NCBI GenBank assembly: GCA_964019425.1
Contig: OZ025791.1
Coordinates: forward strand, 620,001 to 684,000
DNA from: Flectonema sp. DT1601
Taxonomy: Eukaryota
Direction of reading: 5' to 3'
Length of the DNA stretch: 64,000 nucleotides
The translations under genes and the position numbers were made by a program. This document shows, piece after piece, positions 207 through 59,250 of the stretch (position 1 is its first letter; each line of letters opens with the position of its first letter). The notes below the pieces were generated by a model that saw only the letters and a list, made by a program, of their open reading frames with translations, made no database searches and was not told where the DNA came from.

Positions 207-266
207 TAATCAGGAAAGGTTGGCATCGAACAGAAGAAGTGATGTCTCTCAAGGGACAAAACAATA

Positions 267-335: not shown

Positions 336-353
336 AATAAGGATTAATAACAA

Positions 354-18370: not shown

Positions 18371-19685
18371 TCAACTTACTTTGAATTCTCTGTGAGGCTC
18401 ACCAGGCCAACAAATAGGCCTTCGGAGTCGATCGCCACAAATAGATTTGAATGGAGTAAGTTTGTATCCATTGGTGGGCATGCCATTAGTTTTGAGACCA
18501 ACGAAGTTCATAAAAGAGAAATCCATATGATATGCAACCTTGAGTCTTTCCATCACAGACTTTGTGAAATACCTCTCATAACTGGAGTTCGATGCTCCAG
18601 TTCTATGGCGAGAAGCCTCCTGCATGAAACCACCTCTTGCTGACCAACCAACAGATCCATATCTCTTCCATAGGTTATATTTTTCAAGCATCAGTCGTAT
18701 GTGGTCACCGTTTGCCAATCCAATAAAATCAAAGAGAGGAAGAAACTTATATAAATTCCCGATCAGTAGCTGCTTTCGGTAATGCGGATTCACCATCGGA
18801 CCAGTTCCGTATGGAGGAGGCCCCTCACGAGCAACGTATGATACGAATTGATCCCAACTAGTTGATTCTTGTTTAAAATGTTTACTGAAGGATTCTCTTT
18901 TTTTACCCAACCTCGCCTTTAATAAAAACAGATGCAAATAGCAACTCAGAGCTCTGGTTGCAGGATCTCGAAAGAAGACGACTTTTCTATAACGAGGATC
19001 GTTCATTAATTGAGTCATGATATTTTTATTTAAAGAAGAAAATGAGATCCTTTCACCTCAACAAATGGTTGGTTATGTTCATGAGACCAGTTCTTAACCG
19101 CCAAGGTGGGTTGGTCCCATTTCAGTATCCTTTTGTATTGTTCAGGAAGTTCTGATGACATATTACTTCGATTAGCTTTAAGTATACTAATGTCAATAAG
19201 ATCATCGTGTAGCTTCTTTAGTAAATTTAATTTCTGTGGTGTTCTAGGAATTATAACATAAACAGTTGCGTATTCAAATGGTATTTTATTTACTGCTTTT
19301 AATAATCAGCAGTGCGAGAATTATCGGTATATAGGAATGTGGGGGATCAAACCTGCCAGTGTAAACTCCGCTTTAAAATCATGTGTCAAACACCCTCTGT
19401 GTCACAGCGTGTCGTGTACAGCTATTGGTTGTTTATTGAATGTTGCTGCGTGTGTGTTGCAGTCTAGTCGAATGCCACATGCGAAGGCTGCTGCGGGCTT
19501 CAATTGTGGCATCGATGTAGTTGACGACGTCGTTTGTTAAGTTTCGATTTCTCAATGATTCCTCAACGACATCTAAGACTGATGGAGGGATTCTAATCGG
19601 GGTCATTTAAATCTGGTCCAAAGAAACTAAAACTCAACAATGTCATTGCAACTACAACAACAATTCTACTTCGAGAAATTATCAT
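18371..19685 (-). pseudogene. Rearranged sulfotransferase paralog (internal inversion 19266-19479, ~200 bp deletion near 19054, frameshifts)
   Basis: Direct comparison with copies 21298-22818 and 23038-24573. Confidence 0.85.
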
Positions 19686-20048
19686 TTTGTGTAATAAATT
19701 GAAATCTGATATTTATGTGATGAAATAATTGTCTTCTATAATCAGTTTGATAATCACAAACAGAACAGACAGATATGTGTAATAAATTGATATTTGATAT
19801 TCCAACAGAAAGAACCTTATTAATCGATTAGAGATGAATAAATCAACAACATTAGTAAACACAACTGAGTACTAAACATTTGAACAAGAAAGTCAACTCA
19901 ATCGGATTAGAAGAAAACAAAAAGAAATAACTATTTAAGAAATGTAAATAACTAAAACAGGCATATTTATTTTCTTCATGAGTGGTAGTAAGAAAGTAAT
20001 AGCAAACAGATGATTAAAAAGTGTAAATAACTAAATAACTATTGATTT

Positions 20049-20220
20049 AAGGAAAATCAGATAGCCTGATTTTCACGCGTGGGTGGGTTTTTACCGATCA
20101 CGAGCGAAGAGTGAGTTAAATAAACGAGGTGAAAACCCATCCACAAGTGAAAATCTATATCCAATTTTGCATCTAAAACCATCGTTTTATTTACTATAGA
20201 AGGCTTCAAAGGGAAAAATA
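20049..20220. mobile_element. Palindromic ~175 bp insertion, copy 1
   Basis: Long inverted repeat GATTTTCAC..GTGGGTGGGTTTT / AAAACCCATCCAC..GTGAAAATC; interrupts the minisatellite unit. Confidence 0.55.
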
Positions 20221-20385
20221 AACAGGCATATTTATTTTCTTCATGAGTGGTAGTAAGAAAGTCATAGCAATCAGAGTCAGAAATGTAAATAACTAAAAAA
20301 GGTATATTTATATTCTTCTTCAGTGGTAATAAGAAAGTAATAGTAATCAGATGATTAAAAAGTGTAAATAACTAAAACAGGCAGA

Positions 20386-20507
20386 TCAATTTACCCTAAA
20401 ATTCTCTGTGAGGCTCACCAGGCCAACAGATTGGTCCTCGAGGTCGACTGCCACAAATAGATTTGAATGGAGTAAGTTTGTATCCATTGGCGGGCATGCC
20501 ATTAGTA
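20386..20507 (-). pseudogene. Isolated 3' fragment of sulfotransferase gene
   Basis: Near-identical to 21298-21417 (…PRGPICWPGEPHREFRVN*). Confidence 0.8.
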
Positions 20508-20596
20508 GGTCATTAGGGTATATTTATATTCTTCCTCAGTAGTAATAAGAAAGTAATAGCAATCAGATGATTAAAAAGTGTAAATAACTAAATAAC

Positions 20597-20770
20597 TAAG
20601 GAAAATCAGATAGCCTGATTTTCACGCGTGGGTGGGTTTTTACCGATCACGAGCGAAGAGTGAGTTAAAGAAACGAAGTGAAAACCCATCCACAAGTGAA
20701 AATCTATATCCAATTTTGCATCTAAAACTATCGTTTTATTTACTACAGGAGGCTTCAAAGGGAAAAATAA
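20597..20770. mobile_element. Palindromic ~175 bp insertion, copy 2
   Basis: Near-identical to 20049-20220. Confidence 0.55.
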
Positions 20771-20941
20771 ACAGGCATATTTATTTTCTTCATGAGTGGT
20801 AGTAAGAAAATCATAGCAATCAGAATAAGAAATGTAAATAACTAAAACGGGCGGGCATATTTATATTTATTTTCTACATGAGTGGTAGTAAGAAAGTCAT
20901 AGCAATCAGAATAAAAAGTGTAAATAACTAAAACAGGCATA

Positions 20942-21155
20942 TCAGTCAAAATTATTTTTTGCGACCAAAAACACAACCATTTTTCTCACTGCCTGAGGAA
21001 GGTTACACAAAAAAGCAATATTTGTGTAAAAAAAAATTGCGGGTTTGGAATCGGGGAGCGCATAAAATGCCGCTTCGAATTTTTTACTATTTTTTTTTTT
21101 GAAAAAGAAATTTTCATTGTCCAAAATTTGGTCGCAAAAAAATAATTTTGACTGA
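20942..21155. mobile_element. MITE (214 bp) with ~30 bp TIRs and TA flanks, Tc1/mariner-like
   Basis: TA|TCAGTCAAAATTATTTTTTGCGACCAAA ... TTTGGTCGCAAAAAAATAATTTTGACTGA|TA. Confidence 0.8.
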
Positions 21156-21297
21156 TACTTATTTAGTAGTAAGAAAGTCATAGCAATCAAATCAAGAAAT
21201 GTATATAACTAAAAAAAGGTTATATTCTTCTTCAGTGGTAATAAGAAAGTAATAGTAATCAGATGATTAAAAAGTGTAAATAACTAAAACAGGCAGA

Positions 21298-22818
21298 TCA
21301 ATTTACCCTAAATTCTCTGTGAGGCTCACCAGGCCAACAGATTGGTCCTCGAGGTCGACTGCCACAAATAGATTTGAATGGAGTAAGTTTGTATCCATTG
21401 GTGGGCATGCCATTAGTTTTTAGACCAACGAAGTTCATAAAAGAGAAATCCATATGATATGCAACCTTGAGTCTTTCCATCACAGACTTTGTGAAATACC
21501 TCTCATAACTGGAGTTCGATGCTCCAGTTCTATGGCGAGAAGCCTCCTGCATGAAACCACCTCTTGCTGACCAACCAACAGATCCATATCTCTTCCATAG
21601 GTTATATTTTTCAAGCATCAGTCGTATGTGGTCACCGTTTGCCAATCCAATAAAATCAAAGAGAGGAAGAAACTTATATAAATTCCCGATCAGTAGCTGC
21701 TTTCGGTAATGCGGATTCACCATCGGACCAGTTCCGTATGGAGGAGGCCCCTCACGAGCAACGTATGATACGAATTGATCCCAACTAATTAATTCTTGTT
21801 TAAATTGTTTACTGAAGGATTCTCTTTTTTTACCCAACCTCGCCTTTAATAAAAACAGATGCAAATAGCAACTCAGAGCTCTGGTTGCAGGATCTCGAAA
21901 GAAGACGACTTTTCTATAACGAGGATCGTTCATTAATTGAGTCATGATATTTTTATTTAAAGAAGAAAATGAAATCCTTTCTCTGGTTATATCGAAATCC
22001 CTGTGATGCATTTCGATAACACTGTTGGAGTCGAGTGTGATGTCCTCATGACCTACCAGTCTGTCGTATAATCTGCGTAACCCTGTTGACGCTACCTTGG
22101 GAATGACAAACAACACAATCTTGTGAATGGGATCTACGTATCCAGGAGGGTCTCTGAGCTTCCTAAAGTCCCTCGACGTCACCTCAATAAATGGTAGGTT
22201 ATGTTCATGAGACCAGTTCTTAACCGCCAAGGTGGGTTGGTCCCATTTCAGTATCCTTTTGTATTGTTCAGGAAGTTCTGATGACATATTACTTCGATTA
22301 GCTTTAAGTATACTAATGTCAATAAGATCATCGTGTAGCTTCTTTAGTAAATTTAATTTCTGTGGTGTTCTAGGAATTATAACATAAACAGTACTGTGTG
22401 GCATTCGACTAGACTGCAACACACACGCAGCAACATTCAATAAACAACCAATAGCTGTACACGATACGCTGTGACACAGAGGGTGTTTGACACATGATTT
22501 TAAAGCGGAGTTTACACTGGCAGGTTTGATCCCCCACATTCCTATATACCGATAATTCTCGCACTGCTGATTATTAAAAGCAGTAAATAAAATACCATTA
22601 GAATACGCAATGCGAAGGCTGCTGCGGGCTTCAATTGCGGCATCGATGTAGTTGACGACGTCGTTTGCTAGGTTTCGATTTCTCAATGATTTTTTAATAA
22701 TGTTCAAGACTGACGAAGACGTCCTAATCTCTGAATCATTTAAATCCGGTTCGAATGAATTAAAACCCAACAACGTTATTGCAACTACAACAACAATTCT
22801 ACTTCGAGAAATTATCAT
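21298..22818 (-). CDS. Type II membrane carbohydrate sulfotransferase (Sulfotransfer_2-like)
   Basis: N-terminal anchor; IPKVASTGLR (5'-PSB), FFRDPATRALSCY (3'-PB) and HYRKQ. Confidence 0.8.
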   Translation of the reverse strand: MIISRSRIVVVVAITLLGFNSFEPDLNDSEIRTSSSVLNIIKKSLRNRNLANDVVNYIDAAIEARSSLRIAYSNGILFTAFNNQQCENYRYIGMWGIKPASVNSALKSCVKHPLCHSVSCTAIGCLLNVAACVLQSSRMPHSTVYVIIPRTPQKLNLLKKLHDDLIDISILKANRSNMSSELPEQYKRILKWDQPTLAVKNWSHEHNLPFIEVTSRDFRKLRDPPGYVDPIHKIVLFVIPKVASTGLRRLYDRLVGHEDITLDSNSVIEMHHRDFDITRERISFSSLNKNIMTQLMNDPRYRKVVFFRDPATRALSCYLHLFLLKARLGKKRESFSKQFKQELISWDQFVSYVAREGPPPYGTGPMVNPHYRKQLLIGNLYKFLPLFDFIGLANGDHIRLMLEKYNLWKRYGSVGWSARGGFMQEASRHRTGASNSSYERYFTKSVMERLKVAYHMDFSFMNFVGLKTNGMPTNGYKLTPFKSICGSRPRGPICWPGEPHREFRVN

Positions 22819-23037
22819 TTTGTGTAATAAATTGAAATCTGATATTTTATGTGATGAAATAACTATTTGTGTAATAAATTGATATTTGATATTCCAACAG
22901 AAGGAACCTTATTAATCGATTAGAGATGAATAAATCAACAACATTAGTAAACACAACTGAGTACTAAACATTAAGCAAGAAGGTCAACTCAACAAAAAAT
23001 AACTATTTAAAAAGTGTAAATAACTAAAACAGGCAGA

Positions 23038-24573
23038 TCAATTTACTTTGAATTCTCTGTGAGGCTCACCAGGCCAACAAATAGGCCTTCGGAGTCGATC
23101 GCCACAAATAGATTTGAATGGAGTAAGTTTGTATCCATTGGTGGGCATGCCATTAGTTTTGAGACCAACGAAGTTCATAAAAGAGAAATCCATATGATAT
23201 GCAACCTTGAGTCTTTCCATCACAGACTTTGTGAAATACGTCTCCAAACTGGAGTTCGATGCTCCAGTTTTATGGCGAGAAGCCTCCTGCATGAAACCAC
23301 CTCTTGCTGACCACCCAACAGATCCATATCTCTTCCATAGATTATATTTTTCAAGCATCAGTCGTATGTGGTCGCCGTTTGCCAATCCAATAAAATCAAA
23401 GAGAGGAAGAAACTTATATAAATTCCCGATCAGTAGCTGCTTTCGGTAATGCGGATTCACCATCGGACCAGTTCCGTATGGAGGAGGCCCCTCACGAGCA
23501 ACGTATGATACGAATTGATCCCAACTAGTTGATTCTTGTTTAAAATGTTTACTGAAGGATTCTCGTTTATCTAACGTTGATTTCAACAAAAACAGATGCA
23601 AATAGCAACTCAGAGCTCTGGTTGCAGGATCTCGAAAGAAGACGACTTTTCTATAACGAGGATCGTTCATTAATTGAGTCATGATGGTTTCATTCAAAGA
23701 AGAAAATGAGATCCTTTCTCTGGTTATATCGAAATCCCTGTGATGCATTTCGATAACACTGTTGGTGTCGAGTGTGATGTCCTCATGACCTACCAGTCTG
23801 TCGTATAATCTGCGTAACCCTGTTGACGCTACCTTGGGAATGACAAACAACACAATCTTGTGAATGGGATCTACGTATCCAGGAGGGTCTTTAAATTTAG
23901 TGAAATCCCTCGACGTCACCTCAATAAATGGTTGGTTATGTTCATGAGACCAGTTCTTAACCGCCAAGGTGGGTTGGTCCCATTTCAGTATCCTTTTGTA
24001 TTGTTCAGGAAGTTCTGATGACATATTACTTCGATTAGCTTTAAGTATACTAATGTCAATAAGATCATCGTGTAGCTTCTTTAGTAAATTTAATTTCTGT
24101 GGTGTTCTAGGAATTATAACATAAACAGTACTTTGTGGCATTCGACTAGACTGCAACACACACGCAGCAACATTCAATAAACAACCAATAGCTGTACACG
24201 ATACGCTGTGACACAGAGGGTGATTGACACATGATTTTAAAGCGGAGTTTATATTGACAGTATCACTTCCCGGTATTTGGATGACGCGATTGTTTTTGCA
24301 CTGCTGATCATCAAAGGCAGTAAATAGAATACCATTAGAGTATGCAATACGAAGTTTGCGAGTACCTATTGCGGTATCACTGATGTAGTCGACGACGTCG
24401 TTTGTTAGGTTTCGATTTCTCAATGATTCTTCAACAATGTTTAAGACTGATGAAGATGTTCTTATCTCAGCACGAAACTGAGAATGAGGATCATTTAAAT
24501 CTGGTCCAAAGAAACTAAAACTCAACAATGTCATTGCAACTACAACAACACTTCTACTTCGAGAAATTATCAT
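23038..24573 (-). CDS. Type II membrane carbohydrate sulfotransferase, tandem paralog
   Basis: Same motifs; highly similar to the adjacent copy. Confidence 0.8.
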   Translation of the reverse strand: MIISRSRSVVVVAMTLLSFSFFGPDLNDPHSQFRAEIRTSSSVLNIVEESLRNRNLTNDVVDYISDTAIGTRKLRIAYSNGILFTAFDDQQCKNNRVIQIPGSDTVNINSALKSCVNHPLCHSVSCTAIGCLLNVAACVLQSSRMPQSTVYVIIPRTPQKLNLLKKLHDDLIDISILKANRSNMSSELPEQYKRILKWDQPTLAVKNWSHEHNQPFIEVTSRDFTKFKDPPGYVDPIHKIVLFVIPKVASTGLRRLYDRLVGHEDITLDTNSVIEMHHRDFDITRERISFSSLNETIMTQLMNDPRYRKVVFFRDPATRALSCYLHLFLLKSTLDKRESFSKHFKQESTSWDQFVSYVAREGPPPYGTGPMVNPHYRKQLLIGNLYKFLPLFDFIGLANGDHIRLMLEKYNLWKRYGSVGWSARGGFMQEASRHKTGASNSSLETYFTKSVMERLKVAYHMDFSFMNFVGLKTNGMPTNGYKLTPFKSICGDRLRRPICWPGEPHREFKVN

Positions 24574-25004
24574 TTTGTGTAATAAATTGAAATCTGATAT
24601 TTATGTGATGAAATAATTGTCTTCTATAATCAGTTTGATAATCATAAACAGAAATAATCCAATAACTAAGCAACAGTTATTCAGAAACAATTCTGATAAC
24701 ATATGACAAGAGTTACTCGTACAGAACATTAACTTGATGATAACTATTTTCTAACGTCGATCTCCCTTCGACGTCTTATAGCATAACCGCTACTTACACA
24801 AAGACACATTAAAGTTAGAATGATTGTGTCAACAGCAACAGACAGGTGTACTCCTGCGACTAAGCACAGTATGACTTCTCTCTTAGTTAGGGAATAATAT
24901 CAACGAAATCCTGAAATACAGACCCTCACAAAAAGCCGTAGAATATAAACGGCATCAACGAATACAAAACGAACAGCAACAGCAACAAACAACATCGTTG
25001 AACA

Positions 25005-36170: not shown

Positions 36171-39100
36171 TCAAAATGGTTGCTGGGAACCGTCTCTCTT
36201 GATTGCAGATCTGCTTTTTAAAATATTACCCACAGTATTCGGTAGGATTCCATCCGTATCACAATTAAAAGTTGTCGGGTATTTATGACGCTCACCAATA
36301 ACACGAAGGCAGAACTGCGACATTGGTGACCAAAACCGGACGGTAGTATCAGCAGACCCTGATACTAATATGTCATGTTCCACTCCCCGAGAACTTTTTG
36401 ATAATGTTAATGAAGTAACAGCATCAGAGTGTCCTAGGAACGGTGATGGTGGTGAGTCTGGAAATGAAAGATCAAAACGAAGAATTTTATCCGAGTATGA
36501 AACACAAATGAAATTATCATCCCTGGTGACGACAATACTCGAGTTCAATAAACAATTATCTGTTTCGAAATTATAATCTAATCGACTAACTGGGATCATA
36601 TCGTTTGTTATTACGTAAGTATTTATTGTGTTTGAAATGTCATCAGTCGGGTCATCTCCAAATATTGTTATCGCTCCTTCGAATGGTGTTTTTTGATAAA
36701 CTTCATTAGACATTAATTCTTCAGCTTTTTCAAATAATTCTGAAACAGACCACAAAAGTAATCCACGTTTACTATGAAGTCTTGATGGTGAACCACTCGT
36801 ACCTGTATCTGAACTTAGAACAGCAATTAAATCAGTTCCGAGGCTGCATCTGACATCATGATTTCCATTTGAGATTCCAGGATACGGGAGACATATTAGA
36901 GTTGCTATGGATGGATTTGTTTTTATGCAATCAGTTATCTCTGTTATGGTTTTCGTTTTGAAGATCCACAGTTCAATTCCGGCACTGGTTAGACAAATGA
37001 TAGTCTGTCGAATATCAGATTCACGAACACACATATCAAAGTAGGTTGATGTTGATTTATCATTTTGATCGCTCGAATGCAGTTCATGTGTGTAGCACAG
37101 TTCAGAGTTGGGATCGTTTCCGACCTTCCAAAATAACAATCCTCGTTGACTGAGTCCGATTAAGATTGCAGAGTCCTCTGAAAACACAAATTTTGAACAT
37201 TTTGGCTGCATCACTGTCGGTAAACAGATTGCTTCATTATTTATTGACCAAAGAGTTAGTTTATAACCGTTATCAACGTGTGCTATGATATTTGAATTTG
37301 ATGACAGTGCGCAGATTGTTGCTGGAATTAGAAGTCGACTAGCTCCAAAATTATCTTCAAAAATAGCACCAGACTCAGTTGGTGGATATTTCCTTATTGG
37401 CGTGTTGTGAGATTTGTTATATGGAGGGGGTTTGGTTGGTTCGACTTTTTTGACAGGTTTTGTGCGAAGTTCCCTACCAGTTGTTACTTCCCACAACCTG
37501 ATAGTTGAATCGCACCAAGTTAGGACAGCCGTTGATGACGCACAAGAACCGTTTATCTTAGCCGTGTGATATAACTTCTTCTCTGTAGTAGTTTGAGCGA
37601 CTGTATCCCAGATACGAATGGTACCATCTTCTGATGTTGATAGGATTCTTGAATTCGATTCAAGAGGACTCTCTCTTGAACTACTACGAGGTCTGTTTGG
37701 AATATGAATCGTATTGTGACTAATTGGAGCTATACATGTGATTGGTCCATCGTGATTACCAAGTCTAAGACTCTCAACTTGTTTATTATCATAAGTAGTT
37801 GATATAAAGATAGCACTTCCAATAACTGATACGATCTGAAGTGATCTATCAGTTAGTAGAATAGTCAAAGCTGTTACTCCAACAAGTGATTTTGTATAGC
37901 GGGGATGGTGTTCAACTGTTGCTTCAGGTTCGTAGAATCGACGGTCGTTGTTTAAATCAAAATAACCAAAATCTGAAACCTGTCCGTTAGAATATGACAT
38001 ATTTTCCATGACTTGTTTATAATGCATTTTCGACGGTATTATTGTGGAGATTGCCATAGCAGGTGCTCCACTTTCCAGCATGTGAACGAGGATGGTTGCA
38101 CATCGAGTTCCCAGAATTATTTTATTACTCGAACACGCTACGACATTAGGTAATGATCTAGCCTCGTGGACGATCGTAGAAAACGATTCCGACCTCCGTT
38201 TTTCACGCAAATTCCAAACTCTCGTAGTACAGTCTTCACCACAAGTCACTAAGAATTCATTATTAGCAATAGTAGCAGTTAGAATGTGTTTTGTATGTTC
38301 ATTGTCGATAACTTGAATGAGTCTGTAGTGTTGTAAGCACCAAATCCTCGCATAGTTATCACCACCGTAACTCATTAGATATTCTAAATGGTCTTCTTCA
38401 TAAGTAGACATACCAGAAATCCAATGACTTGGTCTGAATTCATCTGTATCTCTTCGTTCTTTTGAGTCCGATAATATAGAAAGTAGTTCTGGATAACCTC
38501 CGTCTTCTGGTATTTTCCAAACTTGAACAGAAGAGTCTGTGCTGGTTATAAACCTATCACTACCAACAGTTCCTATGATACACCCTGACCAGTCAATTGC
38601 CATACTTGGAGGAAGCCTTATACAATCAGGTTGAGGGTAGTTGGGTGTCGGAGAAAAGTCGCCGGTTGAAGTCGGATTTTCAGCTAAAAATGGTCTCCAA
38701 AGACGAACACAACCATCACCACCAATACTAAAGATAGTGTCGTCGATACAACAGGCAGCTGATATTACTGATCCTCCGTGATTTGCGACAATTGATGACA
38801 ACCCAAAAGAACAACTTCCCAAATCCCAATGAGTCTTTGATAGTTGACAGTCATTGAAGATTGCGCCTTCCATTGAAACGAGTTTGAACACACAATTCTC
38901 AAAGTTTGCCTCGTTGAGTAATGCTGATCTGAAGTCTACTCCAGTCACAGTAAGTCCATTAAACTTCCCAGTAATTGGAACCTCACAAGCAGCTACCAAA
39001 CACAGAGCGTTGCTTCTAACCTTTGCTGGAAACATCTTGCTGGTTGCAATTTTAAGAAGTTTTTTACAATTCTCATCACGTTTTGATGTTTGATCTCCTC

Positions 39101-42100
39101 TTTTTGCTTCTTTTCCAAAATAATGAACAACATTAGGATATTGGATATACAAAGACAACCCATCCATTGCTGATGTTAATATCTCAGGGTTACGCCAGAT
39201 ACCAATAGCAGCAAAGTACTCATGAATAGATTTATAACTAAATCTAAATGGAGACGTATTACTGCTGCCTTCAACATGAACTGGTAAGTGTCTAAAACAC
39301 TGTTCTACTAGTTCTTTGATACCAGAAAGCTTTCTCTTAGACAATACTGGAATACTGTCGAGAACAGTAATTGCTTCAGCCGAGGCATCTTCAATTGTGA
39401 TCACCCAGGTCCTTCTTTGTAACATGACACAAGCAATAATCTCTCCTAAGGCGTTGGTTATTTCCTCTACTTCAGCACAACTAAGGTCTTGTTGAACATT
39501 GTAGTAGTTTGCAACTCGATTGCGTATGCATTTTTGAATGTGAGTATGGAATATTAAATTATCCAGAGTGGTTGTGAATTTCTTATTCTCAGAACAATCT
39601 CTAATCTCATGAAATACATTAAACGCGATAGTCATAAGAAACGGATTGATGAATAATAAATTTCTCATTGCGAGGTCTTCGAAAGGATTTCGTAGGTCAG
39701 TTGAGGCTTTACGTGATTGGATCGCAGCTGCTTTTAATCTACTTTTTAGAGACAGGTCATTGGTATCACATTTGAAGTGTTTTTGTTCAGCTATTTTTGC
39801 TTCGTTATTTAAATCCATTTGTAGCCTTCTAAAAAGACTATTAACTAACAGTTGCGTTTCTGCTCTTTCGAAGGACACTATTTCGATCTGTGAAATGACA
39901 GGCGCTAGATTCATAGGTGTTTTATTATTTAGGAGGAGATAATCTTTTCTTAATGTGAAAACAACAAGACAGTTTTCGTGACACCAAGGATGAAGCTGAA
40001 TGAATGATTTATTTTTAAAACTTCCATCCCATTTCAAGTCACACTCATCAAGGGAATCTAAAAACAAAACAACTTTATATTTTTTAACAAGCAAATCTTT
40101 TTGTTGTTCTGATAGGTTGAATGTTTTAAATATAAAATTATCTAATCCGTTCTTTAATTCTAATACTGACCTGGGAGGATCTCCAACAGTAGGAAGAGAT
40201 ATAAAAATTGGGAATAACTCTTTCCCTTGTCTTCCACGATTTTCAACAAAACAATGCGCCAAACAGTTCAATGCAGTAATAGTTTTACCGCTGGAACTAC
40301 CACCCTGAACACACATAGCATTCGGTGGATTTGTTTCATTGAGCCACTCACTAATATGAGTTCGAACTTTAATAGGATAGTCAGATATGGTTATGCCAGG
40401 ACAATCAATGTATGTTTGACGTGCTTTTTTAAAATAACCCGTCAGAGACCTGATCACATCTCGTATTCCATCTACAATTGCGGAATCGATATAGGGAAGC
40501 TCAGCTGTTCTTACATCTGACGGTAATTGTTGTAATGTCGTATTTATAACATCTTCTCTAAGTACTAACATGTTACTTGGAGAGTCCATCATTCGAAGAA
40601 GTGATCGAGATACCTTCCATGAGATGTCGAATTTTGTATTTACAGGAACCACGTATTCAACTTCACCTTCGTATGGTGAACAAAAACTAATACTGCCTGC
40701 TGTGAATACCAAGCCTACTAGTGTCGTTCCTTCTTTTCCGTATCTAAAATCGGAAGCAACTTGTGGTTTTAATGTTGTTGAAGTAAATTCAGTCCAAACC
40801 CATGCATTCGATTGAAAATGATCACCAGTTATATCAGCTGAGTTACCTCTATATACTACTGCTGGTCGTCTTGGTAATGAATGTAACAGTACTTGTATCC
40901 TTTCAATTAATATCCCAAAGTGTTTCACAACTCTACGAGATGCATCATTCCCATCAGGCCATTTCCTCATAGCATTATTCATAACCCAATAAGGCGCTAG
41001 TCCCATCTTGCCTTGGAAGAGTTCGTGGGTTCCTACGCCAAAGGCTGCATGCACCTTAGGGTCAGAAGATTTATTAACTGTTTGTTGTGTTGTTTTATTT
41101 TGTTTATAGTTATAAAGTATCAACTAGTAGATAAAAACATACCACCAGGTTTGTCCTTGTCTTCGATATCTGTGGTGTAGATGTGACCAGCCAACAGTAG
41201 TTGGAACGCGTATTCTCCCGGAAATACCGACAGCGCCGCCACCCACGACATTGTCTCCAAGTCGAAAACGTTTGTGGAAGTCGATTCCATGAGAGGGGAA
41301 CCGGCCTTCACGAGTCTGGAAAGAGTCGTTCTTGCTCTTTTAATTAAGTTATTGACATGATAAGCGGTGTACGCTTCTGGGTATGTACTTGGTAAGTTCT
41401 CAAGCCACGTAATAAGACTTTGTTCCTTTCTTTCTGTCTCAGAGTAGACTTTTTTATTTGAAGAAGTCCCCTCAGTGAGTGAACGCAACTCACTTCCTGA
41501 CATCACTCGGCTGAGTCTTCGTGACTGTTGATCGTCTTGTAGAGATTCCCACAGGGATGGGTCTTCCTTTCGTAGTTTGTAATCTTTTCCTTCATAAGCT
41601 GGTTGTTCTTGTGAATCAATTAAGTCATTCTGTCCAACACTATCAGAAGGTTGTTGTACTTCAGATTTATCTTTAATTGTTAGTGGTAATTCAAAACTGC
41701 TGCTGCTTTTGCAAAACTCTTGAATCTTATCCTGCAACACTTTGACATTCGATTGGTGATAACGTCTCGCAAATAGATGTCGAATTGTATGTTTTCGACG
41801 TTCAACGTATTCGTATGGAATTCTTTGATTTTGACCTTCGTCTTCATCATCACTACTGTCTGCATCAGTAGACACGACACTTTGATATATAGGAGTTAGT
41901 TTAGAAGTACAATGAAGTGCATATGTCATTGGTAGCGCACCAGAACTATTACGAACTTCTACTAAACTCGGATCCCTTTCTATTAACTTTCTAACGAATT
42001 CATGTCTGCAGTAGAATGCAGCAATGTGAAGGGCAGTCATTCCTGATTCTGGCATCTTCATTGAGACGTCAACACTCAGGTCTAATAACAGTTTGAATAT

Positions 42101-45100
42101 TAAAGAACATCCTTTGCGTGCTGATTCGTATAAAAATGTTTTCATAACAGATTCAGAGAAAGGACTAGAATGTGATACGTCGAACTTATATAACATTCCT
42201 GCGATGTGTCGTTGGACGTCAGGTTTATCATCTTCGAAGATGTATTTTTTAAAATCTTCCAAACAATTGTCAGAAAGTTCTTGAAATGGACTGCGAGGTG
42301 GTTCCGCAGGTTCAATTTGCTTCAATTCTTCAATAATTTTATGTTCTACTTGTTCATCTTCCTTCTTTCCCCCTTCGGGGTATAACGCTTCTACGATCTC
42401 ACTGCGCTTAGCTTTCTGGGATCGAATCTTTCCAAATGATGTCGTCTTTTTCTGAAGATTTATTAATTTTTTTAACCCGTCTCCATTACCGTAAGGTTTC
42501 CAATACTTCTTATATTTTGATAATGATCGAGCGAAGAGTGCTTCAGTGTAATCCGCTATGTCTGTCGGACCTTTCTTTATCTTATCTTGAGATGTGTGAT
42601 CCGAATTCTTACTAATCAAAGCAGTTTCCTTTAGAACTCTACTTGTGCTTTTTAACAGTGATGCGGCTACGCTTTCTGGAAGAATGGCAGCAGATTTTTT
42701 ATGTTTTCTCGGAGGTGGAGGAGTTGGGTTTATTAATAATGTATTTGAAGGAATCACTATTGAAGATTCATCATGAGGTGTCACTGAATAATCATCAAGT
42801 ACTTGCTGTGGTACAGGACAATCTGAAACATCATTCGTGTTGAGGGTGTCGCCCAACTCCCACGAAACATAAATTGACGTATGTTGATGACCTTCCGAAG
42901 TAGCGGAGTTAAAAGAAAGAGCGAATTCATCTTCTTCTTCTTCACTAAGACTCTCATCAGAGCTGCACTCTGTTGATAGTATTCCGTGATCAATAACTGA
43001 GTTAACCGGTTCGTGTTTGTGGTAGTTTCCGTCTATTAAATCCCAATTTATTTTAATTGGTTTCCATGTTTTTGATGATTCCATTTCTTGGATTACTTCA
43101 CGAACCTCTTTCATAATAAGTGTCTTTATGTGAATTCCGATGGCTATTCTGGCACATCTAAACAAATCAACACAAGCAGCTATCGGCCTTCCACACCTCA
43201 TTGGATATAAAGAACACGAAAAAGGAATAATACTTCCGCCGGATGCACTGAGATGTACAAATGAAGGTTTCTGAAGTCGCTCAAAAGAGATGTAGTGATT
43301 GTTAGTAGTCATGTCGAAAATATTTTCTGATACGGGTGTTTTAGTGGATGAGTCAATTACCGCAAGTCTTATTGACAAGGTTTGTTGTAGGTATGCGTGT
43401 CTTCCCTTTGAGTCTAAAATCTTCACCTCACCCGATACAAAAAACATATTTGAGAATCGTCGATCCTCTTCAAAAGTAATACAAGTTGGAGTACCTGATC
43501 CAATAGTGAATTGCTTACTTTTAGCAATGTTTGGTCTTCTCGCGATGGTTTCATCTTCACAACTAACTTCACAGTAATAGTCACCCGGAACACTCGGAAG
43601 TGCAACTTGAACGTTAGATACATGACATTCAATTGCCTCACAAGGCTGTACTGTACTTTCCTTTTTAAATACTTTAACACAAAAAGGTCCTTCATGATCA
43701 CAACGAATTCTAACATGTATGATCCCACTGTGGTATTTACCGTCTTCAGTCCCTGGAGGATCAAGATCGATTCCCAGTCTGGGAATTTTTTTTAGTGATT
43801 CGTTAACATCTGATTCTAATATTCGGCATCTTATCAACGAGAATTTTTTGTTTAGTAATCCTAAACAAATCTTATTCGAAGTGTGTTTTGATTTTGGAAG
43901 ACGAAGTTCGAAGAACACTGGATGTAAAGTATCAACCATATGAGATGTTGGTAGGAAGTCACTTACCTTGTATGATCTGACTGTGATATACTCACCTGGT
44001 GACGACGTCGATATCAATCGTGTTGTACTAAAATTCTTAGATCGTAATTGAGATATTTTATGATAACAAGTTTTCAATGCTATCCAGACTTTATACGTCG
44101 ACTCAATCTCCTTAATGTCTATTTTAGACTGAAAAATAACATAGAGACAATCAGTATTAGCAATCAGCGTAACATCAGACAGAGGTTTCAACTTCCTCAT
44201 ACGAACATCAGGAATAGTTAGAGTATTCTTAATTGGAAAAGTGTTTTTATACTGTAGGATGTTTCCATTTAACTTAACTCCGTCTGAGATAAGTACTTTA
44301 ACATGCGAACTATTTCCACTTAAATGTGATATGGTATTGGATGGGACGAGTATATCGTTCCAGGTGTTTGAAATTTTTAAATTAACTTTATCACTTGTGA
44401 CGATCCTCTTTGAAAATATGATTGACGTCGACAACTGTCCGAACACAACATCTTGTCTAAATGAGTAAGTAACGTTCTCACTGTCATCGATTTCCTCAAC
44501 ATAACTCAAATCAGATACACAAATTATCGATGTGACTATTTCAAAGTTACCATCATTCTCATGAAGCGTCAATCCCCGTAAAGGTATGCTATAAGTATTT
44601 TTCTTCGATCCAACAAGAGGACGATGCCCCACTAAAACACCATTGTGATAAGCAGCAAGACATAACTCGGGTGTTTCTAAGTGAGGTAATAAGGTACAAT
44701 TTATCGATAAAAAGGTGTCAGTATACTCCTCAGTAATAACACATTTCAAAGAATAAGTCACATTTTCAACGAATGAAAATGACAGTAATTGCATAGAACT
44801 AATATCCTGAGAGCTTATCGTGAAATCTGTGAGTAGGGTTTTTCCAGCAATCTGAACTTCATAACGACAACAACAAACATGTTTTCTCGAAGCTGTTATG
44901 AATTCACTTATATTTTCAAGTTCTGCTGACGATAACGTTGATGACGTATAACTGTATTCCTGTCCTTCAGTTATGAGTGTGTTAATATCCTCTACTAAGG
45001 GAGTATTTTTTCGTATTGTAACACCAATAGTAGATCTTTCTCCCTTCACAAAAAGTGATACCAGCGGAACTTCAAGCTGTCCAACACCAAATTGTCGACT

Positions 45101-48100
45101 TGCGTAGAGAAAAAGTCTACCAGTGCAGTCTTGTGAAAACACATCAAAATTAGAATCAATTTTCCCAGACACAGCAGTACAGTGTTGTGGTATTATAACT
45201 TTTTGAGGAATGCAAAGATTTGATAAAATACTTTTCGGAGATTGGTAATTCAAGTGAGGAATTTCTTTTCCACGAAACCAAACTGAAACTGTGCAACTTT
45301 CACAGAAATTAGGCAGTATAACAAATTTCATTTCATTATTTATAAGGTGCGAGATCCCGTCAACGAAAGCAAGTTCATTACCCCTGCTGTCCTGAGCTGT
45401 AATAAAGACGGCTTCTCCGTCCAGAATGGTCGGTTCTTTTTTTAACTTCGAATTTAAAAATTTTAATTTGTAACGTGAGAATGAACGCATTGGTGCACCC
45501 AGCAGATACACAGCCAGCTCACATTGTGTTATCGGAGAGGAGTCTTTTTCTAAATAAAATCCAAACTCAGAAACGTCATCTAACCCTTCACTAGTATTCA
45601 TCAATAACGGAATAATAACAGGTTGGTGAGTAGTCAGGGATAGTTTTATTGTTTTTCTGTTGATTTTAATATTTTCATTTTCAAAGGATTCGACCACTGA
45701 AGAGTCCACTGTGATCGGAAATAGTCCATTTTGAATATCTTGATTAGCTCTCTCAACGGCAACGTATCCTAAGAAACCTGTCTTCACGTGAGGCGCAGTA
45801 CATATTTCATGTTTTTGTAATTGTTCTTGTTGAATGAGGTTACAATCACCAACAGAAGCTATCAAGTACAGGCCATGCATGTGACTGACCTGAATACCTT
45901 CTACGGATCTTATTGACATCCACAAAGTGTGTGTTTCTGAGCAAAACTCCTCCAATCGAACGTCAAACGGTGGAGTAGTTTGTCTAAATGAGATTTCCTT
46001 CTTTTTTAAAATACCTTTTTGACGAATGATAGCTTCGTATTTTACTACTGAAATCCCATCTGTTCCCGTTCCAGGTTTACAACCAACAGCTGATTGAGCA
46101 GAAATCAATATTTGATTATTATACTGATCGGCTGCAGGTAATCCAACTGAACGAAAAGCTGCGATGTTCGGAATGAGTATTCCTTCTTTAATGAAATATG
46201 GTTTTTTAATTTTAGTAGTGTTGATATTCCCACCAACACTAAAACAACAGCTATACCAGTTTTCATCTCGTCCACCACTTGAAATTGTTAGTAATAAATA
46301 GTACGTTCCAATGCTATGGATTTCAATCTCTGATTCGATGGTGTTCGTTCTCTCTTTTCGTTTTATTGAGAGGACGTGATGAGAGTCTTCGTCTCTTCCG
46401 ATTTTGAAGCAACTCATTGCAACCTCTTCTTCACACAGCTGTGAATGAATATTATATATAGATACGGATACGTTAAAGGCCACACCAGCTGTAACGGTTC
46501 CGATGTCTGAGAACTTTACTCTGCGTACTCCTCCACCAGTTGCGAGAACTGAGAGTTGTCGAAGGATTGCTATTTTGTGATTTATTTTGATTTTTTTTTA
46601 TTTTTTTTTTAATGTAATGTACACAATAAGATTATATCTACACACCAATAACTACTTCAGATTGGTCTTCACTATTACTTTCTGTTGAGGTTACAACAGT
46701 CGGTTGAAATATCCAATAAAGAGACACAAAGAACCAGGCAGATGGTGAACCCAAACCGCCACCCTTCACAGTGGAGTCGATTGGAGGAGAGAAACGACCA
46801 TTACAAACTTGTTTAAATCTTCGATGTAACTCTTGAATTGAATAATACGAGTTAAAAGATAGTAGTTGAGTAACAATGGCTTCAAACTTTATCATAAGTT
46901 GAGTTTCAGATACGTGTTCTGGATATCCGGCATCTAGTTTTGGAACAAAAGAAGCAATCCAGGGATGTGCTTCCAGCTCTGTCACACACTTTTGTGATAT
47001 CTTTCTCACCAAAACCCACAATTGATGTACCTTGTTAAGACTGTTTGACAAGTACAAAGCTCGGTTACGTATCTTATGTCGGGTTGCGTTTACTTTCTTT
47101 CCAAGCTGAAGTTCTCGAGGAACTCTTGTTGCAGTCTGTTGCATGCTGTGATAACGACTTTCTGCTTCAAGCATGCATTGGAGAGCTCCAAATGATGAAA
47201 TTAACTTCGAATAACCGCCGCTTACTTCATTCAAGTGTGCTGCGAGTAAACACAGATCTGGTTTTTGTAAAGACTGCCAAGTCCAGTCTTGTGGAGTACG
47301 CAGGCACACAGTGGATTCACCAATACATATCTTTGAGTCATCGTGAATGTCAGATGAGTGTTCCCAAACTGTAACATATGCGAGGCAGTTTTGTTGAGTG
47401 AAAACTCCTTCGCATGAGCCCCAAAGCATAAGAGTGCCGCCAAGAGTGCATTTAAAAAAACCTCTCGCTGACTTCATGTCTGATGATGGAACTTGAAGCT
47501 GACTACCTTTTAGTTTATAAAGTTTTGTTCCTCTTGGATAAGCTACTACTATAGAATAAGGTTTTCTTTTGTGAATATTTCTAATTGATCGAAATCGAAT
47601 ACAAGATTCTCTCGGGATACTTGTTTCATGATAGAATGACCAGGCTATCAACACTCTTGTTTTGTTTGAGTTCTTTGAGCTACTCCCTGGCAATGAGACA
47701 TATTTCCATGAGCATCCAGTTGTTTCTTCACTGTCAATAGGAACTACAACTGTACCCATCTTAAATTTTCGTTCCGAAAAAATATCCACAGTAAACGAGT
47801 CTTGTGGAGGTCCTACCTTCTTAAAGGAATGTTGGTGAACAAATCCATCGTGATGACTGGTGTTGTCTGATGTGTTTTCAAGCATTCTGTGTTTCTCATC
47901 ATTCATAATTGATCGAAGAGTCTGATCTTCTACAACATAACCACTCTGAGAAATACTCATGTAGGATATTTTATAAAATGAAAGGCTGTGGCTTAACACT
48001 GTTCTTATACTCTTGATTGTAACGCCAAGCTTTCCCTTGCACGAGTGAACTTCAAAAGGGACTTGTGATGTAGTTGGTGTCGCCCACATAAAGTAAGTTG

Positions 48101-49367
48101 TCAAAGCAGTGATAATTGCAGACGGTATTGCGGCAGAGAGAACTACTCGGCGGATGCGAGAGACGGCGGATGGGAGGAAAACATGTTTTGAAACCAGAAT
48201 CTGAGATTCCGCATCAGCAGAAACACTTCCAATGTCAATCTCAAAAGCGGTAGAAGAAACTGTTGTACTCGAATCAACGATGTCACGTAGTCTGTCAGTA
48301 GCACTGATTGGAGACAAATCAACTGAGCTACCAGTCGCTGCCATACCAAAACTTGTTTCCAATCTCGTGGATGGTAATGGCTCAGATGGTAATGGCTCAG
48401 GGTACAGTGCAGCAACGTCATGTCGGAACATGCATTTCAGTTCCTTAGTTCTGTGTGATTCTTCAATAAAACTAAACCTTGCTACTCTTAGTCTATAACT
48501 TTTCGCCTTCTCTACTCTCTCCGATCTTGACACCCTATCATGAGCTGTGTCGTTGTGTATGTAGTAGTAGGCTCCTCCGAAATTGACCTTTTTCGCTGCC
48601 TTTTCCATGAGTGTTCTTCGAGGATTTTCGATTTCAGATTTATTTTCATCGAAATATCGTTTTGAGAGTTCTTCATTTACGTATCTCCTCTCAAATGCAT
48701 TTTTCACTTTATCGTCAAATTCAGTCATCGCTAAGTCTGATCTCTGCATTGGAACGTCTTGTTGTTGCTGTTGTCGTTGTTGTGGGTGTAGGTGTTCTTT
48801 TAAGTGAGAAAATTTGTTTGCGCGTTGTTCTTGTAAGACTTTATCGTCACGATGAAGGTAGGCTGCTAGAGCGTTATAATTCTGTTCTCGTTTTACTATT
48901 GCGGCATTGAATCTGGCAGGATCCCAATCAACAGAATGCCCATCAGGTTTGTTTTGAAGTAAATCCTTAGCATGATCACTTCTTGATCGAGTGTACTCTA
49001 ATCGCTCATCTTCGTTGTTGTTTTCAAGTGACAATCGTTCGACTACTTCTGGTGGGAGTAGCCCTTCGTGATGTCTATTCTGACGATCACTTTCAGTATC
49101 ATCTTGAAACCGTTGTCTTGCTTGCTGTAAGTGATCTGGTAATCTTTTATTGTATAAAACGTCTTGTTTCTTCTTCTTTCCAGTATGTACATTCATTGTA
49201 GTACTCGTTAACTCTAGTGTACTATCTGGTGTGTAATCATCTTCTGTTTCTTTTATTGTCCTGACTTTGATTTGTCGTTTCTTGAGCTCCATGCAACGAG
49301 ACTTTATCTGAGAATAGTCTGCCATCCTTCCCGAGCATTTTGGAGTGACATATTTGCGGCGTTGCAT
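36171..49367 (-). CDS. Giant NLR/STAND-like protein, ~4351 aa, 3 exons (49367-46646, 46569-41143, 41077-36171): C2-like regions, ankyrin, ADP-ribosyltransferase, NACHT, pentapeptide, WD40
   Basis: Two short phase-1 GT-AG introns (46570-46645, 41078-41142) join the three ORFs in frame. Motifs: GMTALHIAA (ankyrin); VYRG/FTSTT/EGEVE (ART); GGSSSGKT and VLFLDSLDE (NACHT); GHSDAVTSL...SGSADTTVRFW (WD40). Confidence 0.8.
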
Positions 49368-50247
49368 TCCGCAGATTAGTCAGTCAGTATCATTTGTTTT
49401 GTATTATTGGAATCTGATATTCTGAAGTGGTTGTTATAAAATGCTAATGAGGTGTCTTTTTTAAGTGACAGTCCGTAACATCATTGTCATTAGTGTTGTC
49501 TGGTTTAAATTAGAGTCTAAGTAAGGGACGTGTCACTTGCATACGTTTTACACCAAAAAAAAAAGAAAATATTTGACTTTTGGGTTTTCTTTTTTTTTTT
49601 TTTTTTTTTTTTTTTTTGGCTTAATTCTCATTCCGTTCATTCCCATGTTGCTGTTGCTGTTGCTGTGTTTGTGCAACAATTACAAAAGCAACTGTTCTCT
49701 GTTCCCATTTAACAACGTACAGCCAGGTGCCGCGTTGCCTCACACATGTTCCGATAGAGAAATCATTTAAACCCTGTTTTTCCCACATTTACTGTATCGA
49801 CCTTATGAATATTTCCTTTTTTCAGACAACTGATGAATACCTTGTAATGTGCCAGGTGATATTTCACCAATGTCGTAGGAGTAAAAATAAAAAACTTTAA
49901 AAAATGCATAGCTGTAAGAGCAGTAAAGCGAAAACGAGATGCGAAGAAGGACATTGGGCAAACCTGCACACCCGAAATCCCTCCCCAAGGAGGCTGCAGC
50001 ATTCCTACAGCTAAAAGATTACGAAAATCAAAAGGGGGGTGAAAAGGACAAAGCAAAGCCTACCGAGCCCGCAAGAAAAAGGAACTTAAGCGGACAGGTC
50101 AAACAAAACGGCCAATGCTCTTCGAGAGAAGAGACCAAATAAAAAAAAATAAAAAAAATAAAAAAAAAAAAAAAAAAAACCACTCCCACTCCCACTAATG
50201 CACTAGTTTTTTTGACGGATAAAGAGCAGCAGTGAAATATCGACATG

Positions 50248-57645: not shown

Positions 57646-59250
57646 CTACAGATCCTCTTCGTCAGAAGAGGCGGCGGCAAAGTCGTTCATTTCTGCCTGG
57701 TCGAAGGTCTCGTATCTCTGGTTGTTTTTGTTGAGCTCGAGCTCGTTCTTGTTCTTCCAAATAGCGTATCCGAGGGCTCCGAGGCAGAGAGCCATGAGAA
57801 GCCAGAGAAGGATAAACAACCAAAGGTACAGGCAGAATCCGATGTCAAGACCATCACAGCAGTCACTGCTACCACCTTCACCACCAGCAGCTCCTCTGAC
57901 ACTTGGTGACTGAACTTCATCAATGACGAATCCCTCATCTCTCTTGTCAACAAATTCATTGTGGCTGTCAATACGTCTCCACACTGGAGTACCTCCCAAA
58001 CTCATTTCCTGTCTGCATACCATGTAGGCAGCCTTGTTAATACCAGCCTCGGTATTAATCATCATCTCTCCATCAGCAACATCCATTGATGATCTGTCAA
58101 AGATGAAGTCTGTGATGGTGGCTCTGTTGTCACCACTCATTACAACACCTCCATCAATCATTACACCCTTTGGACATGCAGTTGTTGGATTAATAAACTG
58201 TCTGGTCTCATTGAAGCGACAAGTTGCAACGAAATCTCTTTCGTTGTTGTTTTCACACTCGTTTGGGGTTTCAGTGTTTCCAGATTTGTATTGTGGAACG
58301 ACGAGGTACTTATCAGTCCTATTTTGTTTAGTTTGGTTTGATTTCACTAATACACGCTTGCTGATGATACTACTACAACATAAACATAAACATAAACATA
58401 AACATAAACATAAACATAAACATAAACATAAACATAAACATAAACATAAACATAAACATAAACATAAACATAAACATAAACATAAACATAAACATAAACA
58501 TAAACATAAACATAAACATAAACATAAACATAAACATTACATACTCCTTTAGATCACAACCTACAACAAGGACGTTGAATCTGTTTCCTGTCACCGGACG
58601 GTTAGGAAATGGAGTGTACATGTGAGGACCTGTTTGAGTGTTATTTCATTAAAAAACTGTTACGCTATTTAATTACTACTATAAAGTAAAGTAATAAAAG
58701 AGGGAAAAGATTATTCCCATTACCCCCCTCTTCGAAAAGCTATTCCAGTTGTGCAGTTTAAATAAAATAATCACACCATTTGGTAGACAATTCTTTGGGA
58801 ATCTGCAGTAAGTAACAGGGTCCAGAGTACTCTTTCTGCAAGTTGCGCATGGGAAGACATCTGTTCCATTAACGTTTCCACAAACACCTTCTGCTCCACA
58901 TCCGTATGGTGCAGGTCTTCCGTTGTAGCAAACAGATCCAGGCCTTGTGTCTGTGTGTGTTTTGTTTTGTTTTGTTTTGTTTTTTTTGATTTTTTTTTTT
59001 TCAATAATAACGGCTATACTGTAAACGTAGACATACTAGTACAAATACCCTCCTCGATACCTCCATAGAAACCCTTGGCACAAACGGTACACTGACGTGC
59101 CTCGTCAAGATCCCATCCCTTATGGCAGACACAGCACCCGTTTACTTCATCACCGCGATTGCAGCTTAGAGTCGTTGCTGGAGACACACCCATGGCCATT
59201 TGACTCAGGCTAAGCCCCAAGATGACGAACAAAACACTAGTGAGCTGCAT
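57646..59250 (-). CDS. Type I membrane protein with signal peptide and Cys-rich EGF-like N-terminus, 4 exons
   Basis: CVCHKGW...CTVCAKGFYG. Donors GTATGT, GTGTGA and GTATGT with CAG/TAG acceptors keep the frame through to a C-terminal TM and acidic tail. Confidence 0.75.
58377..58537. repeat. (AAACAT)n microsatellite, ~26 units, intronic
   Basis: Perfect hexamer run immediately after the donor at ~58543. Confidence 0.95.

What the first reader, a model, noticed from the sequence alone, without database searches (positions are those of the whole stretch)
36171..42150. NLR-like STAND protein with an apparently intact ADP-ribosyltransferase effector in a protist
Seen: HIYT...YWVMNNAMR (split by the 65 bp intron, which supports the join), then VYRG, FTSTT and YEGEVE. 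These are followed by Walker A GGSSSGKT, Walker B VLFLDSLDE, a pentapeptide-like stretch (~38835-38965) and many WD40 repeats; ankyrin repeats lie upstream. Known: R-S-E with ExE marks cholera-toxin-like, often Arg-specific, ARTs, and effector-NACHT-WD40 is the layout of fungal HET-E-type and bacterial anti-phage NLRs. Inference: a sensor-activated toxin or immune receptor in a euglenozoan, a candidate innate defence or cell-death system.
Basis: partly seen in the sequence, partly recalled or inferred. Interest (0 to 1): 0.8.

Follow-up and report, generated by a model that had tools for sequence, protein, structure and literature searches.

The report
Protist sensor-switch ADP-ribosyltransferase receptor family
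This gene encodes an immune-receptor-like switch protein (NACHT ATPase plus repeat tail) fused to an ADP-ribosylating enzyme domain with all catalytic residues in place; relatives occur in all three main groups of euglenozoan flagellates, where the family likely acts as a sensor-triggered defence or cell-death receptor, a role not yet tested.

Summary
A minus-strand gene joins, across a 65-nt GTATG..CAG intron, ankyrin repeats, an R-S-ExE ADP-ribosyltransferase (ART), a NACHT module, pentapeptide repeats and a degenerate WD40 region. A model (pLDDT 83) matches NOD2/NLRP3 (Z 15) and ART2.2-type ARTs (Z 12-13). The gene is larger than reported: at least 3,400 codons, perhaps about 4,340. It belongs to a family: 68 of 85 relatives carry ART and NACHT together. 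All 8 named relatives (of 22 looked up) are euglenozoans: diplonemids, prokinetoplastids, Euglena. The catalytic triad is almost invariant, while N-termini and C-terminal repeats vary. Likely mechanism: ligand binding to the repeats flips the NACHT switch and frees the ART to modify a target or consume NAD+. Defence is inferred, not shown. This copy is atypical: long branch, 3 clear WD40 blades against 12-14, Tyr for the winged-helix His. It is not HET-E. Ten literature searches found no description of this architecture; a key ART review and preprint supplements were unavailable. The scan noted this family before on another genome (e1-7216601). Verdict: new variant of a known kind.

The parts
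46646..49367 (-). ORF A (about 905 codons): charged N-terminal half, one weak hydrophobic stretch at aa 412-430. Possible first exon, or a separate gene.
   Evidence: Open frame; no Pfam or NCBIfam match; hydropathy 1.73; no match among the relatives.
46570..46645 (-). Candidate 76-nt intron joining ORF A to exon B (uncertain)
   Evidence: In frame, GC 0.17, A-rich 3' end, but GTGTG donor and TAG acceptor are off-consensus. The 50 codons before exon B's first Met score as coding.
42998..46569 (-). Long N-terminal extension of exon B, possibly Ig/filamin-like repeats (lead only)
   Evidence: Atlas hits of 0.83-0.87 to filamin/invasin/Ig clusters, below the 0.9 bar; fold model unusable, pLDDT 29; no match in relatives.
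41903..42139 (-). Ankyrin repeats
   Evidence: Pfam Ank_2 E 4e-14 on the piece; ankyrins also precede the ART in P0002, P0003, P0004, P0016, P0037.
41153..41551 (-). N-terminal helical part of the ART domain, with HIYT
   Evidence: Relatives-only ART profile positions 18-150, E 9e-14; BLAST to P0003, E 7e-7.
41078..41142 (-). 65-nt phase-1 intron inside the ART domain
   Evidence: G|GTATG..ACAG, GC 0.23; one of 6 such short introns found on this strand, the other 5 at ends of other ORFs; matches published Diplonemidae splice signals.
40551..41003 (-). ART catalytic core: R (VYRG), S (FTSTT), E-x-E (EVE), then a family-specific WK-S--LLRM helix
   Evidence: structural matches Z 12.2-13.2 to 6drh, HopU1, ART2.2, Vis.
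39054..40418 (-). NACHT module: Walker A GGSSSGKT, Walker B LDSLDE, sensor TLR, NPF, winged-helix FSYKSIHEY
   Evidence: Pfam NACHT above cut-off; motifs; Foldseek top hits NOD2, NLRC4, NLRP3; Z 15.2 to NOD2.
38823..38969 (-). Pentapeptide repeats
   Evidence: Pfam PF00805 22.4 bits, cut-off 20.2.
36171..38798 (-). Degenerate WD40/beta-propeller region to the stop codon; putative sensor
   Evidence: Pfam propeller families to E 4e-18 and WD40 51 bits; 3 blades above 5 bits against 12-14 in close relatives.

Best explanation
The gene encodes an ART-NACHT-pentapeptide-WD40 protein of a euglenozoan family that likely works as a ligand-gated, NLR-like defence or cell-death receptor, with the ART predicted to be its output enzyme. 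Shown: domain order, both folds (as a prediction matched to solved structures), conserved catalytic and nucleotide-binding motifs, family breadth, faster change in the C-terminal repeats. Inferred by analogy with NLRC4, APAF1 and bacterial NACHTs: at rest the repeats hold the NACHT in an ADP-bound closed state that restrains the ART; a foreign or damage ligand binds the repeats, ATP exchange opens and oligomerises the NACHT, and the ART mono-ADP-ribosylates a cellular or invader protein, probably on arginine, arresting or killing the cell. The variable N-termini (ankyrin, SAM, RCC1, myristoylation-like starts, here a long extension) would localise the receptor or recruit targets.
For: 68 of 85 relatives have ART and NACHT, 67 in that order. 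In 70 aligned ART regions: R 70, S 69, catalytic E 68, E/Q at -2 in 69. In 62 NACHT regions: Walker A K 59, Walker B second D 62, sensor R 61. Model pLDDT 83.1, pTM 0.83; NOD2 Z 15.2 (rmsd 4.3, 393 aligned) and ART2.2 Z 12.6 (rmsd 3.6, 141 aligned). C-termini are WD40 in many, LRR in P0033, P0058, P0067, ankyrin in P0049. The C-terminal region was the least conserved of ART, NACHT and C-terminus in 14 of 16 hand-picked pairs; the closest pair is 96/95/78%. Seven named relatives are transcript products, so the family is expressed as one chain. No strongly hydrophobic N-terminus in 20 of 20 checked (maximum 1.51), consistent with a cytosolic protein.
Against: No activity, ligand, target or phenotype was tested. 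The query held both domains, so their co-occurrence among hits is partly built in, and the profiles were made from the same proteins. WD40 repeats drift faster than enzymes in general, and no dN/dS test was possible. A fixed effector with variable prefixes differs from the effector swapping of bacterial and fungal NLRs. This copy has Ser at a Walker A position that is Gly in 61 of 62 relatives, Tyr where 47 of 62 have the winged-helix His (10 gaps), few clear WD40 blades and a long branch. No paralogue or defence cluster lies in the window.
Confidence: 0.58

Rival explanations
1. An endogenous signalling switch. The same chemistry serves reversible regulation (cytoskeleton, flagellum, nutrient or stress sensing), not defence, as with non-immune STAND proteins.
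For: The ART-NACHT core is fixed across three lineages. N-termini look like localisation modules: 11 of 86 begin with a myristoylation-like motif; ankyrin, SAM, RCC1 and PDZ occur. Neighbours are housekeeping or surface genes. Eukaryotes have reused toxin ARTs as regulators (PMC3417536 passages).
Against: Many divergent paralogues, lineage-restricted clades, swapped repeat types and a near-identical pair that differs mainly in the repeats fit conflict-driven families better.
Confidence: 0.2
2. The family is a receptor, but this copy is a degenerate or specialised member (scaffold, helper, or switch-uncoupled enzyme).
For: Longest-class branch, 1.84; Walker A Gly to Ser, winged-helix His to Tyr, 3 clear WD40 blades, a unique extension of 1,500-2,400 aa.
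Against: Frames of 913, 1,825 and 1,650 codons are open with coding-like codon use. R, S, E-x-E, Walker A K/T, Walker B and sensor R are all kept, and the model is confident.
Confidence: 0.13
3. The output is NAD+ hydrolysis (or modification of nucleic acid) and not transfer to protein arginine, making it the functional equivalent of TIR-STAND and SIR2-STAND receptors.
For: NADase effectors are common on STAND proteins. 8 of 70 relatives have Q-x-E. Human ARTC5 may act mainly as a hydrolase (PMC10789625).
Against: This copy and 61 of 70 relatives have E at -2, and the best structural matches are enzymes I recall as arginine-specific transferases (specificity recalled, not from a call).
Confidence: 0.09

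Closest known systems
Bacterial NLR-related NACHT proteins (bNACHT; Kibby et al., 10.1101/2022.07.19.500537)
   Same: Enzyme effector, NACHT, repeat sensor; beta-propeller and pentapeptide sensors are listed; NAD+-targeting effectors are common.
   Different: ART is not in their effector list (Supplementary Discussion; tables not seen). Here the host is a eukaryote and the effector is fixed across the family. No relative was confirmed in GTDB genomes by a two-pattern scan, a weak test.
Fungal NLRs of the HET-E/NWD type
   Same: Effector-NACHT-WD40 order.
   Different: No HET, HeLo, SesB or other canonical fungal N-terminal domain (list in PMC12258605); pentapeptide linker present; no near-identical WD40 repeats in this copy.
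Animal NACHT receptors NOD2, NLRC4, NLRP3, and TeTIR-NACHT-WD40 proteins (TEP1, NWD1/2)
   Same: Best structural matches of the NACHT part; TEP1-type proteins couple an NAD+-consuming enzyme to NACHT-WD40 (10.64898/2026.09.21.753143 passages).
   Different: About 11-13% identity; no CARD, PYD or TIR; the effector is an ART fold.
ARTC (R-S-E) mono-ADP-ribosyltransferases: rat ART2.2, HopU1, Vis, 6drh toxin; Pfam ART PF01129
   Same: Fold and R-S-E-x-E triad; 18 of 23 members of alignment A2 match PF01129.
   Different: Not secreted or GPI-anchored as far as seen, no delivery domain, embedded upstream of a NACHT, with an extra conserved WK-S--LLRM helix near the end of the fold.

Membership tests
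ARTC / R-S-E ADP-ribosyltransferases | Split beta-sheet ART fold | tested here: met
   Predicted model residues 20-170 match 6drh Z 13.2 (rmsd 3.3, 138 aligned), HopU1 12.7, ART2.2 12.6.
ARTC / R-S-E ADP-ribosyltransferases | R, S and catalytic E at the three motifs | tested here: met
   VYRG, FTSTT, EVE; 70, 69 and 68 of 70 relatives agree; triad defined in PMC10789625 and PMC3482391.
ARTC / R-S-E ADP-ribosyltransferases | NAD+-dependent transfer; arginine specificity | not testable with these tools
   E-x-E suggests arginine (recalled rule); no assay.
NACHT-clade STAND NTPases | NACHT profile, Walker A GxxxxGK[TS], Walker B hhhhD[GAS]hDE, sensor R | tested here: met
   PF05729 28.5 bits above cut-off 26.7; motifs. 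Walker A position 4 is Ser here, Gly in 61 of 62 relatives.
NACHT-clade STAND NTPases | NBD-HD1-winged-helix architecture | tested here: met
   Foldseek top hits NOD2 (E 9e-11), NLRC4, NLRP3; Z 15.2 over 393 residues.
NACHT-clade STAND NTPases | Conserved winged-helix histidine that stabilises the ADP-bound state | tested here: not met
   Tyr in this copy; His in 47 of 62 relatives, 10 gaps. Role of the His from Kibby et al. passage. Met for the family, not for this copy.
NLR-like immune receptors (functional class) | Effector-STAND-repeat tripartite layout | tested here: met
NLR-like immune receptors (functional class) | Ligand-induced oligomerisation | not tested
NLR-like immune receptors (functional class) | Role in defence or cell death | not testable with these tools
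   Inferred from architecture and family variation only.
Fungal HET-E/HNWD | N-terminal HET domain | tested here: not met
   No HET family in the Pfam scans of the regions upstream of the NACHT; an ART fold occupies the place.
Fungal HET-E/HNWD | Near-identical WD40 repeats (feature recalled) | tested here: not met
   No DNA repeat inside the gene among the families shown; only 2 strong blades. One relative, P0007, has a repeat pair at 96% identity, mean 31%.
Named bacterial anti-phage systems (Avs, bNACHT) | Match to curated system profiles; bacterial host | tested here: inconclusive
   No PADLOC or NCBIfam match for the window protein; one weak DS8_antiphage match (E 7e-5) for the Euglena relative. 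The host is a eukaryote with spliceosomal-type introns.

The most novel reading that the evidence does not exclude
Euglenozoans have an ancestral, lineage-expanded NLR-like innate immune system whose executioner is a cholera-toxin-fold ADP-ribosyltransferase: a class of NLR output not described in animals, plants, fungi or bacteria, in a protist group with no known receptor-based immunity, and testable in Diplonema papillatum and Euglena gracilis.
Probability: 0.5. Interest if true: 0.85.

Novelty: new variant of a known kind. Interest (0 to 1): 0.68.

Why it matters
How free-living protists sense viruses and intracellular bacteria is largely open. Diplonemids are among the most abundant marine eukaryotes (PMC10161547 abstract). 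A family of dozens of divergent ART-NACHT proteins across diplonemids, prokinetoplastids and Euglena gives concrete candidates for receptor-based immunity or regulated death in these cells. It would also add an effector class to STAND biology and a cytosolic R-S-E ART family to eukaryotic ADP-ribosylation, where human ARTCs are luminal or extracellular. Named members exist in species that can be cultured, so enzyme and knock-out tests are direct.

Tried and rejected
No whole genome was held, so no paralogue census for this organism. No sequencing run was listed: no evidence either way on splicing or expression. The single-sequence fold of the N-terminal extension was unusable (pLDDT 29) and was not searched. 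An internal-repeat test of ORF A and the extension stayed within the shuffled range (best 49, null maxima 41-68). Word-indexed homologue searches were insensitive: 3 hits, none among longer proteins, 5. No relative was confirmed in viral contigs, phage records or GTDB genomes; these are pattern-limited and weak negatives. Two metagenome loci, L001 and L002, hold one ART-NACHT gene with frame breaks at different places. Trees disagree on this copy: the NACHT-only tree puts it with 6 NACHT-only sequences (0.938; its profile included the window sequence), the ART-only tree is unresolved, and the concatenated tree puts it in the diplonemid clade (0.925). PDB sequence search with the ART piece gave nothing significant (best E 0.66); the profile search was filled by WD40 proteins. 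'HET-E' rows in the D. papillatum proteomics supplement could not be tied to this family (file cut when stored). Rejected: frameshifted pseudogene or two unrelated ORFs at 41.1 kb (collinear profile, intron signature); secreted toxin (no signal-like N-terminus, no delivery domain seen); HET-E membership.
Full report
Observation. The region holds three consecutive minus-strand frames: A 46638-49379 (913 codons), B 41120-46597 (1,825) and C 36171-41123 (1,650). Pfam gives ankyrin in B, and ART (E 0.0037 on one exon, below cut-off), NACHT (above cut-off), pentapeptide and WD40 in C. The Atlas placed the ART piece among ART clusters at 0.96.

Gene model. The B/C intron 41142-41078 is 65 nt, in frame, G|GTATG..ACAG, GC 0.23. 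A scan found 6 short AT-rich GTATG..CAG introns of 59-86 nt on this strand; the other 5 sit at ends of other ORFs. PMC12621601 (section 5 read) reports (G)/GTATG donors, CAG acceptors and A-rich tracts in Diplonemidae. An ART profile built without the window maps its first half to B 1683-1815 and its second half to C 41-191, and relatives carry both in one chain. The join is therefore well supported, though no RNA was available. From B's first Met the protein has 3,393 codons. The 50 codons before that Met score as coding (0.30; maximum 0.03 in 94 non-coding blocks, which also served as background, so the gap is inflated). That suggests an upstream exon. A 76-nt in-frame GT..AG gap would add ORF A, for 4,337-4,351 codons, but its signals are off-consensus and many in-frame pairs exist by chance. 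I put this join at about 0.6. The extension has no match among relatives and only a weak Ig/filamin lead.

Folds. An AlphaFold2 model of 752 residues with a 26-sequence alignment had pLDDT 83.1 and pTM 0.83. Foldseek ranked NOD2, NLRC4 and NLRP3 first. The wide structural search gave NOD2 Z 15.2 (rmsd 4.3, 393 aligned) for the middle, and for residues up to about 175 the ARTs 6drh (Z 13.2), HopU1 (12.7), rat ART2.2 (12.6) and Vis (12.2).

Family. A full HMMER search of 1.84 billion representatives returned 85 proteins besides the query. With profiles built from these hits, 68 have ART and NACHT (67 in that order), 8 ART only (all under 500 aa) and 9 NACHT only. The query favoured such fusions. 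Among 70 aligned ART regions of 86 proteins, R is kept in 70, S in 69, the catalytic E in 68, and the -2 position is E in 61 and Q in 8. A WK-S--LLRM-like helix near the end of the ART is shared by most. Of 22 proteins looked up, 8 are named: Diplonema papillatum KAJ9461234.1, Lacrimia, Flectonema, Namystynia, an 'Hpha' transcript (Hemistasia, recalled), Apiculatamorpha, Papus and Euglena gracilis; 14 are unnamed ENA records. Assigning Apiculatamorpha and Papus to prokinetoplastids is recalled. Seven of the 8 are EukProt transcript products. The other 64 proteins were not looked up, so members outside Euglenozoa are not excluded. In a midpoint-rooted FastTree of 65 proteins with both domains, the window's protein falls in a clade with D. 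papillatum, Lacrimia and Hpha (0.925) on a long branch, and the two kinetoplastid names share another clade (0.945). Single-domain trees did not confirm this placement. An origin in the euglenozoan ancestor is an inference; no donor or root was tested.

Variation. C-termini are WD40 in many members (12-14 blades in 9 of the 19 relatives scored), LRR in three and ankyrin in one of the 26 scanned individually. N-termini fall into many unrelated clusters, with ankyrin, SAM, RCC1 and, in 11 of 86, a myristoylation-like start. In 14 of 16 hand-picked pairs the C-terminal region was the least conserved; one pair went the other way and one had no alignable C-terminus. This fits sensor diversification but is not a selection test.

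This copy. It keeps R, S, E-x-E, Walker A K/T, Walker B and the sensor R. It has Ser at a Walker A position that is Gly in 61 of 62 relatives, Tyr at the winged-helix His (47 of 62 His, 10 gaps), and 3 clear WD40 blades. Kibby et al. describe that His as stabilising the ADP-bound inactive state of NLRC4. So this copy may be regulated differently from typical members, or be drifting.

Mechanism. Best reading (0.58): ligand binding to the repeats drives nucleotide exchange and oligomerisation of the NACHT, which frees the ART to ADP-ribosylate a protein target, in defence or regulated death. Only the architecture, predicted folds, motifs and family pattern are shown; gating, oligomer, target and role are inferred from NLR biology (PMC12258605 and PMC7159879 passages). 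Rivals: endogenous signalling (0.20), a degenerate or helper copy (0.13), NADase or nucleic-acid output (0.09).

Literature. Ten searches listed no paper on ART-NACHT proteins in euglenozoans. Seen: Kibby et al. preprint, passages and the whole Supplementary Discussion, which lists no ART effector (tables closed); PMC10161547 passages with no 'ADP-ribos' or 'WD40' in the main text and supplements, which list two 'NACHT domain-containing' orthogroups, one with 26 Hpha members, and no ADP-ribosyltransferase term; PMC7052976 term search, 0 hits; PMC12697944 supplement search; passages of PMC10789625, PMC3417536, PMC3482391, PMC12258605, PMC7955679, PMC7159879, PMC8195603, 10.1101/2024.10.26.620412 and 10.64898/2026.09.21.753143. 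The 2015 review on ART natural history was not held; it, or bioRxiv supplements, may already note such fusions.

Verdict. A real, apparently intact gene; a divergent member of an apparently undescribed euglenozoan ART-NACHT family. It works like an NLR by architecture, is a NACHT-clade STAND and an R-S-E ART by tested features, and is not a HET-E or a named bacterial system. New variant of a known kind; interest 0.68.

Noticed in passing
window 34884-36078: 57-nt inverted arms (91% complementary) enclose about 1.08 kb holding a eukaryotic LSU rRNA fragment (Rfam 141 bits) and a tRNA-like stretch near 35900-35970 that ARAGORN did not call; looks like a MITE-type element carrying an rRNA piece, 93 nt past the gene's stop.
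   Followed up: partly
window 1-1420, 3860-5920, 25700-27830: Arrays of an approximately 211/350-nt repeated unit; the first begins just after a GTATGT donor in the UDP-glucose dehydrogenase gene, so it probably fills an intron.
   Followed up: no
window 18371-24600: Three tandem sulfotransferase (Sulfotransfer_2) paralogues, 95-98% identical in parts, with a 214-nt segment present in both orientations.
   Followed up: no
window 30043-31977 and 33020-34594: A leishmanolysin (M8) gene with intron-split low-complexity tail and a ferroportin gene lie just downstream; all long ORFs in the window are on the minus strand, as in euglenozoan gene arrays.
   Followed up: no
window 58365-58540: Perfect ATAAAC hexamer array of about 170 nt that produces a spurious open frame.
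   Followed up: no
L001 4214-7070 and L002 3628-6482: The same ART-NACHT-pentapeptide-WD40 gene in two metagenome contigs, with frame breaks at different positions, more likely assembly errors than real lesions.
   Followed up: partly
P0026 (6,012 aa) and P0032 (4,513 aa): Giant family members; P0032 from Papus has about 3,500 residues after the NACHT with WD40 and ankyrin matches.
   Followed up: no
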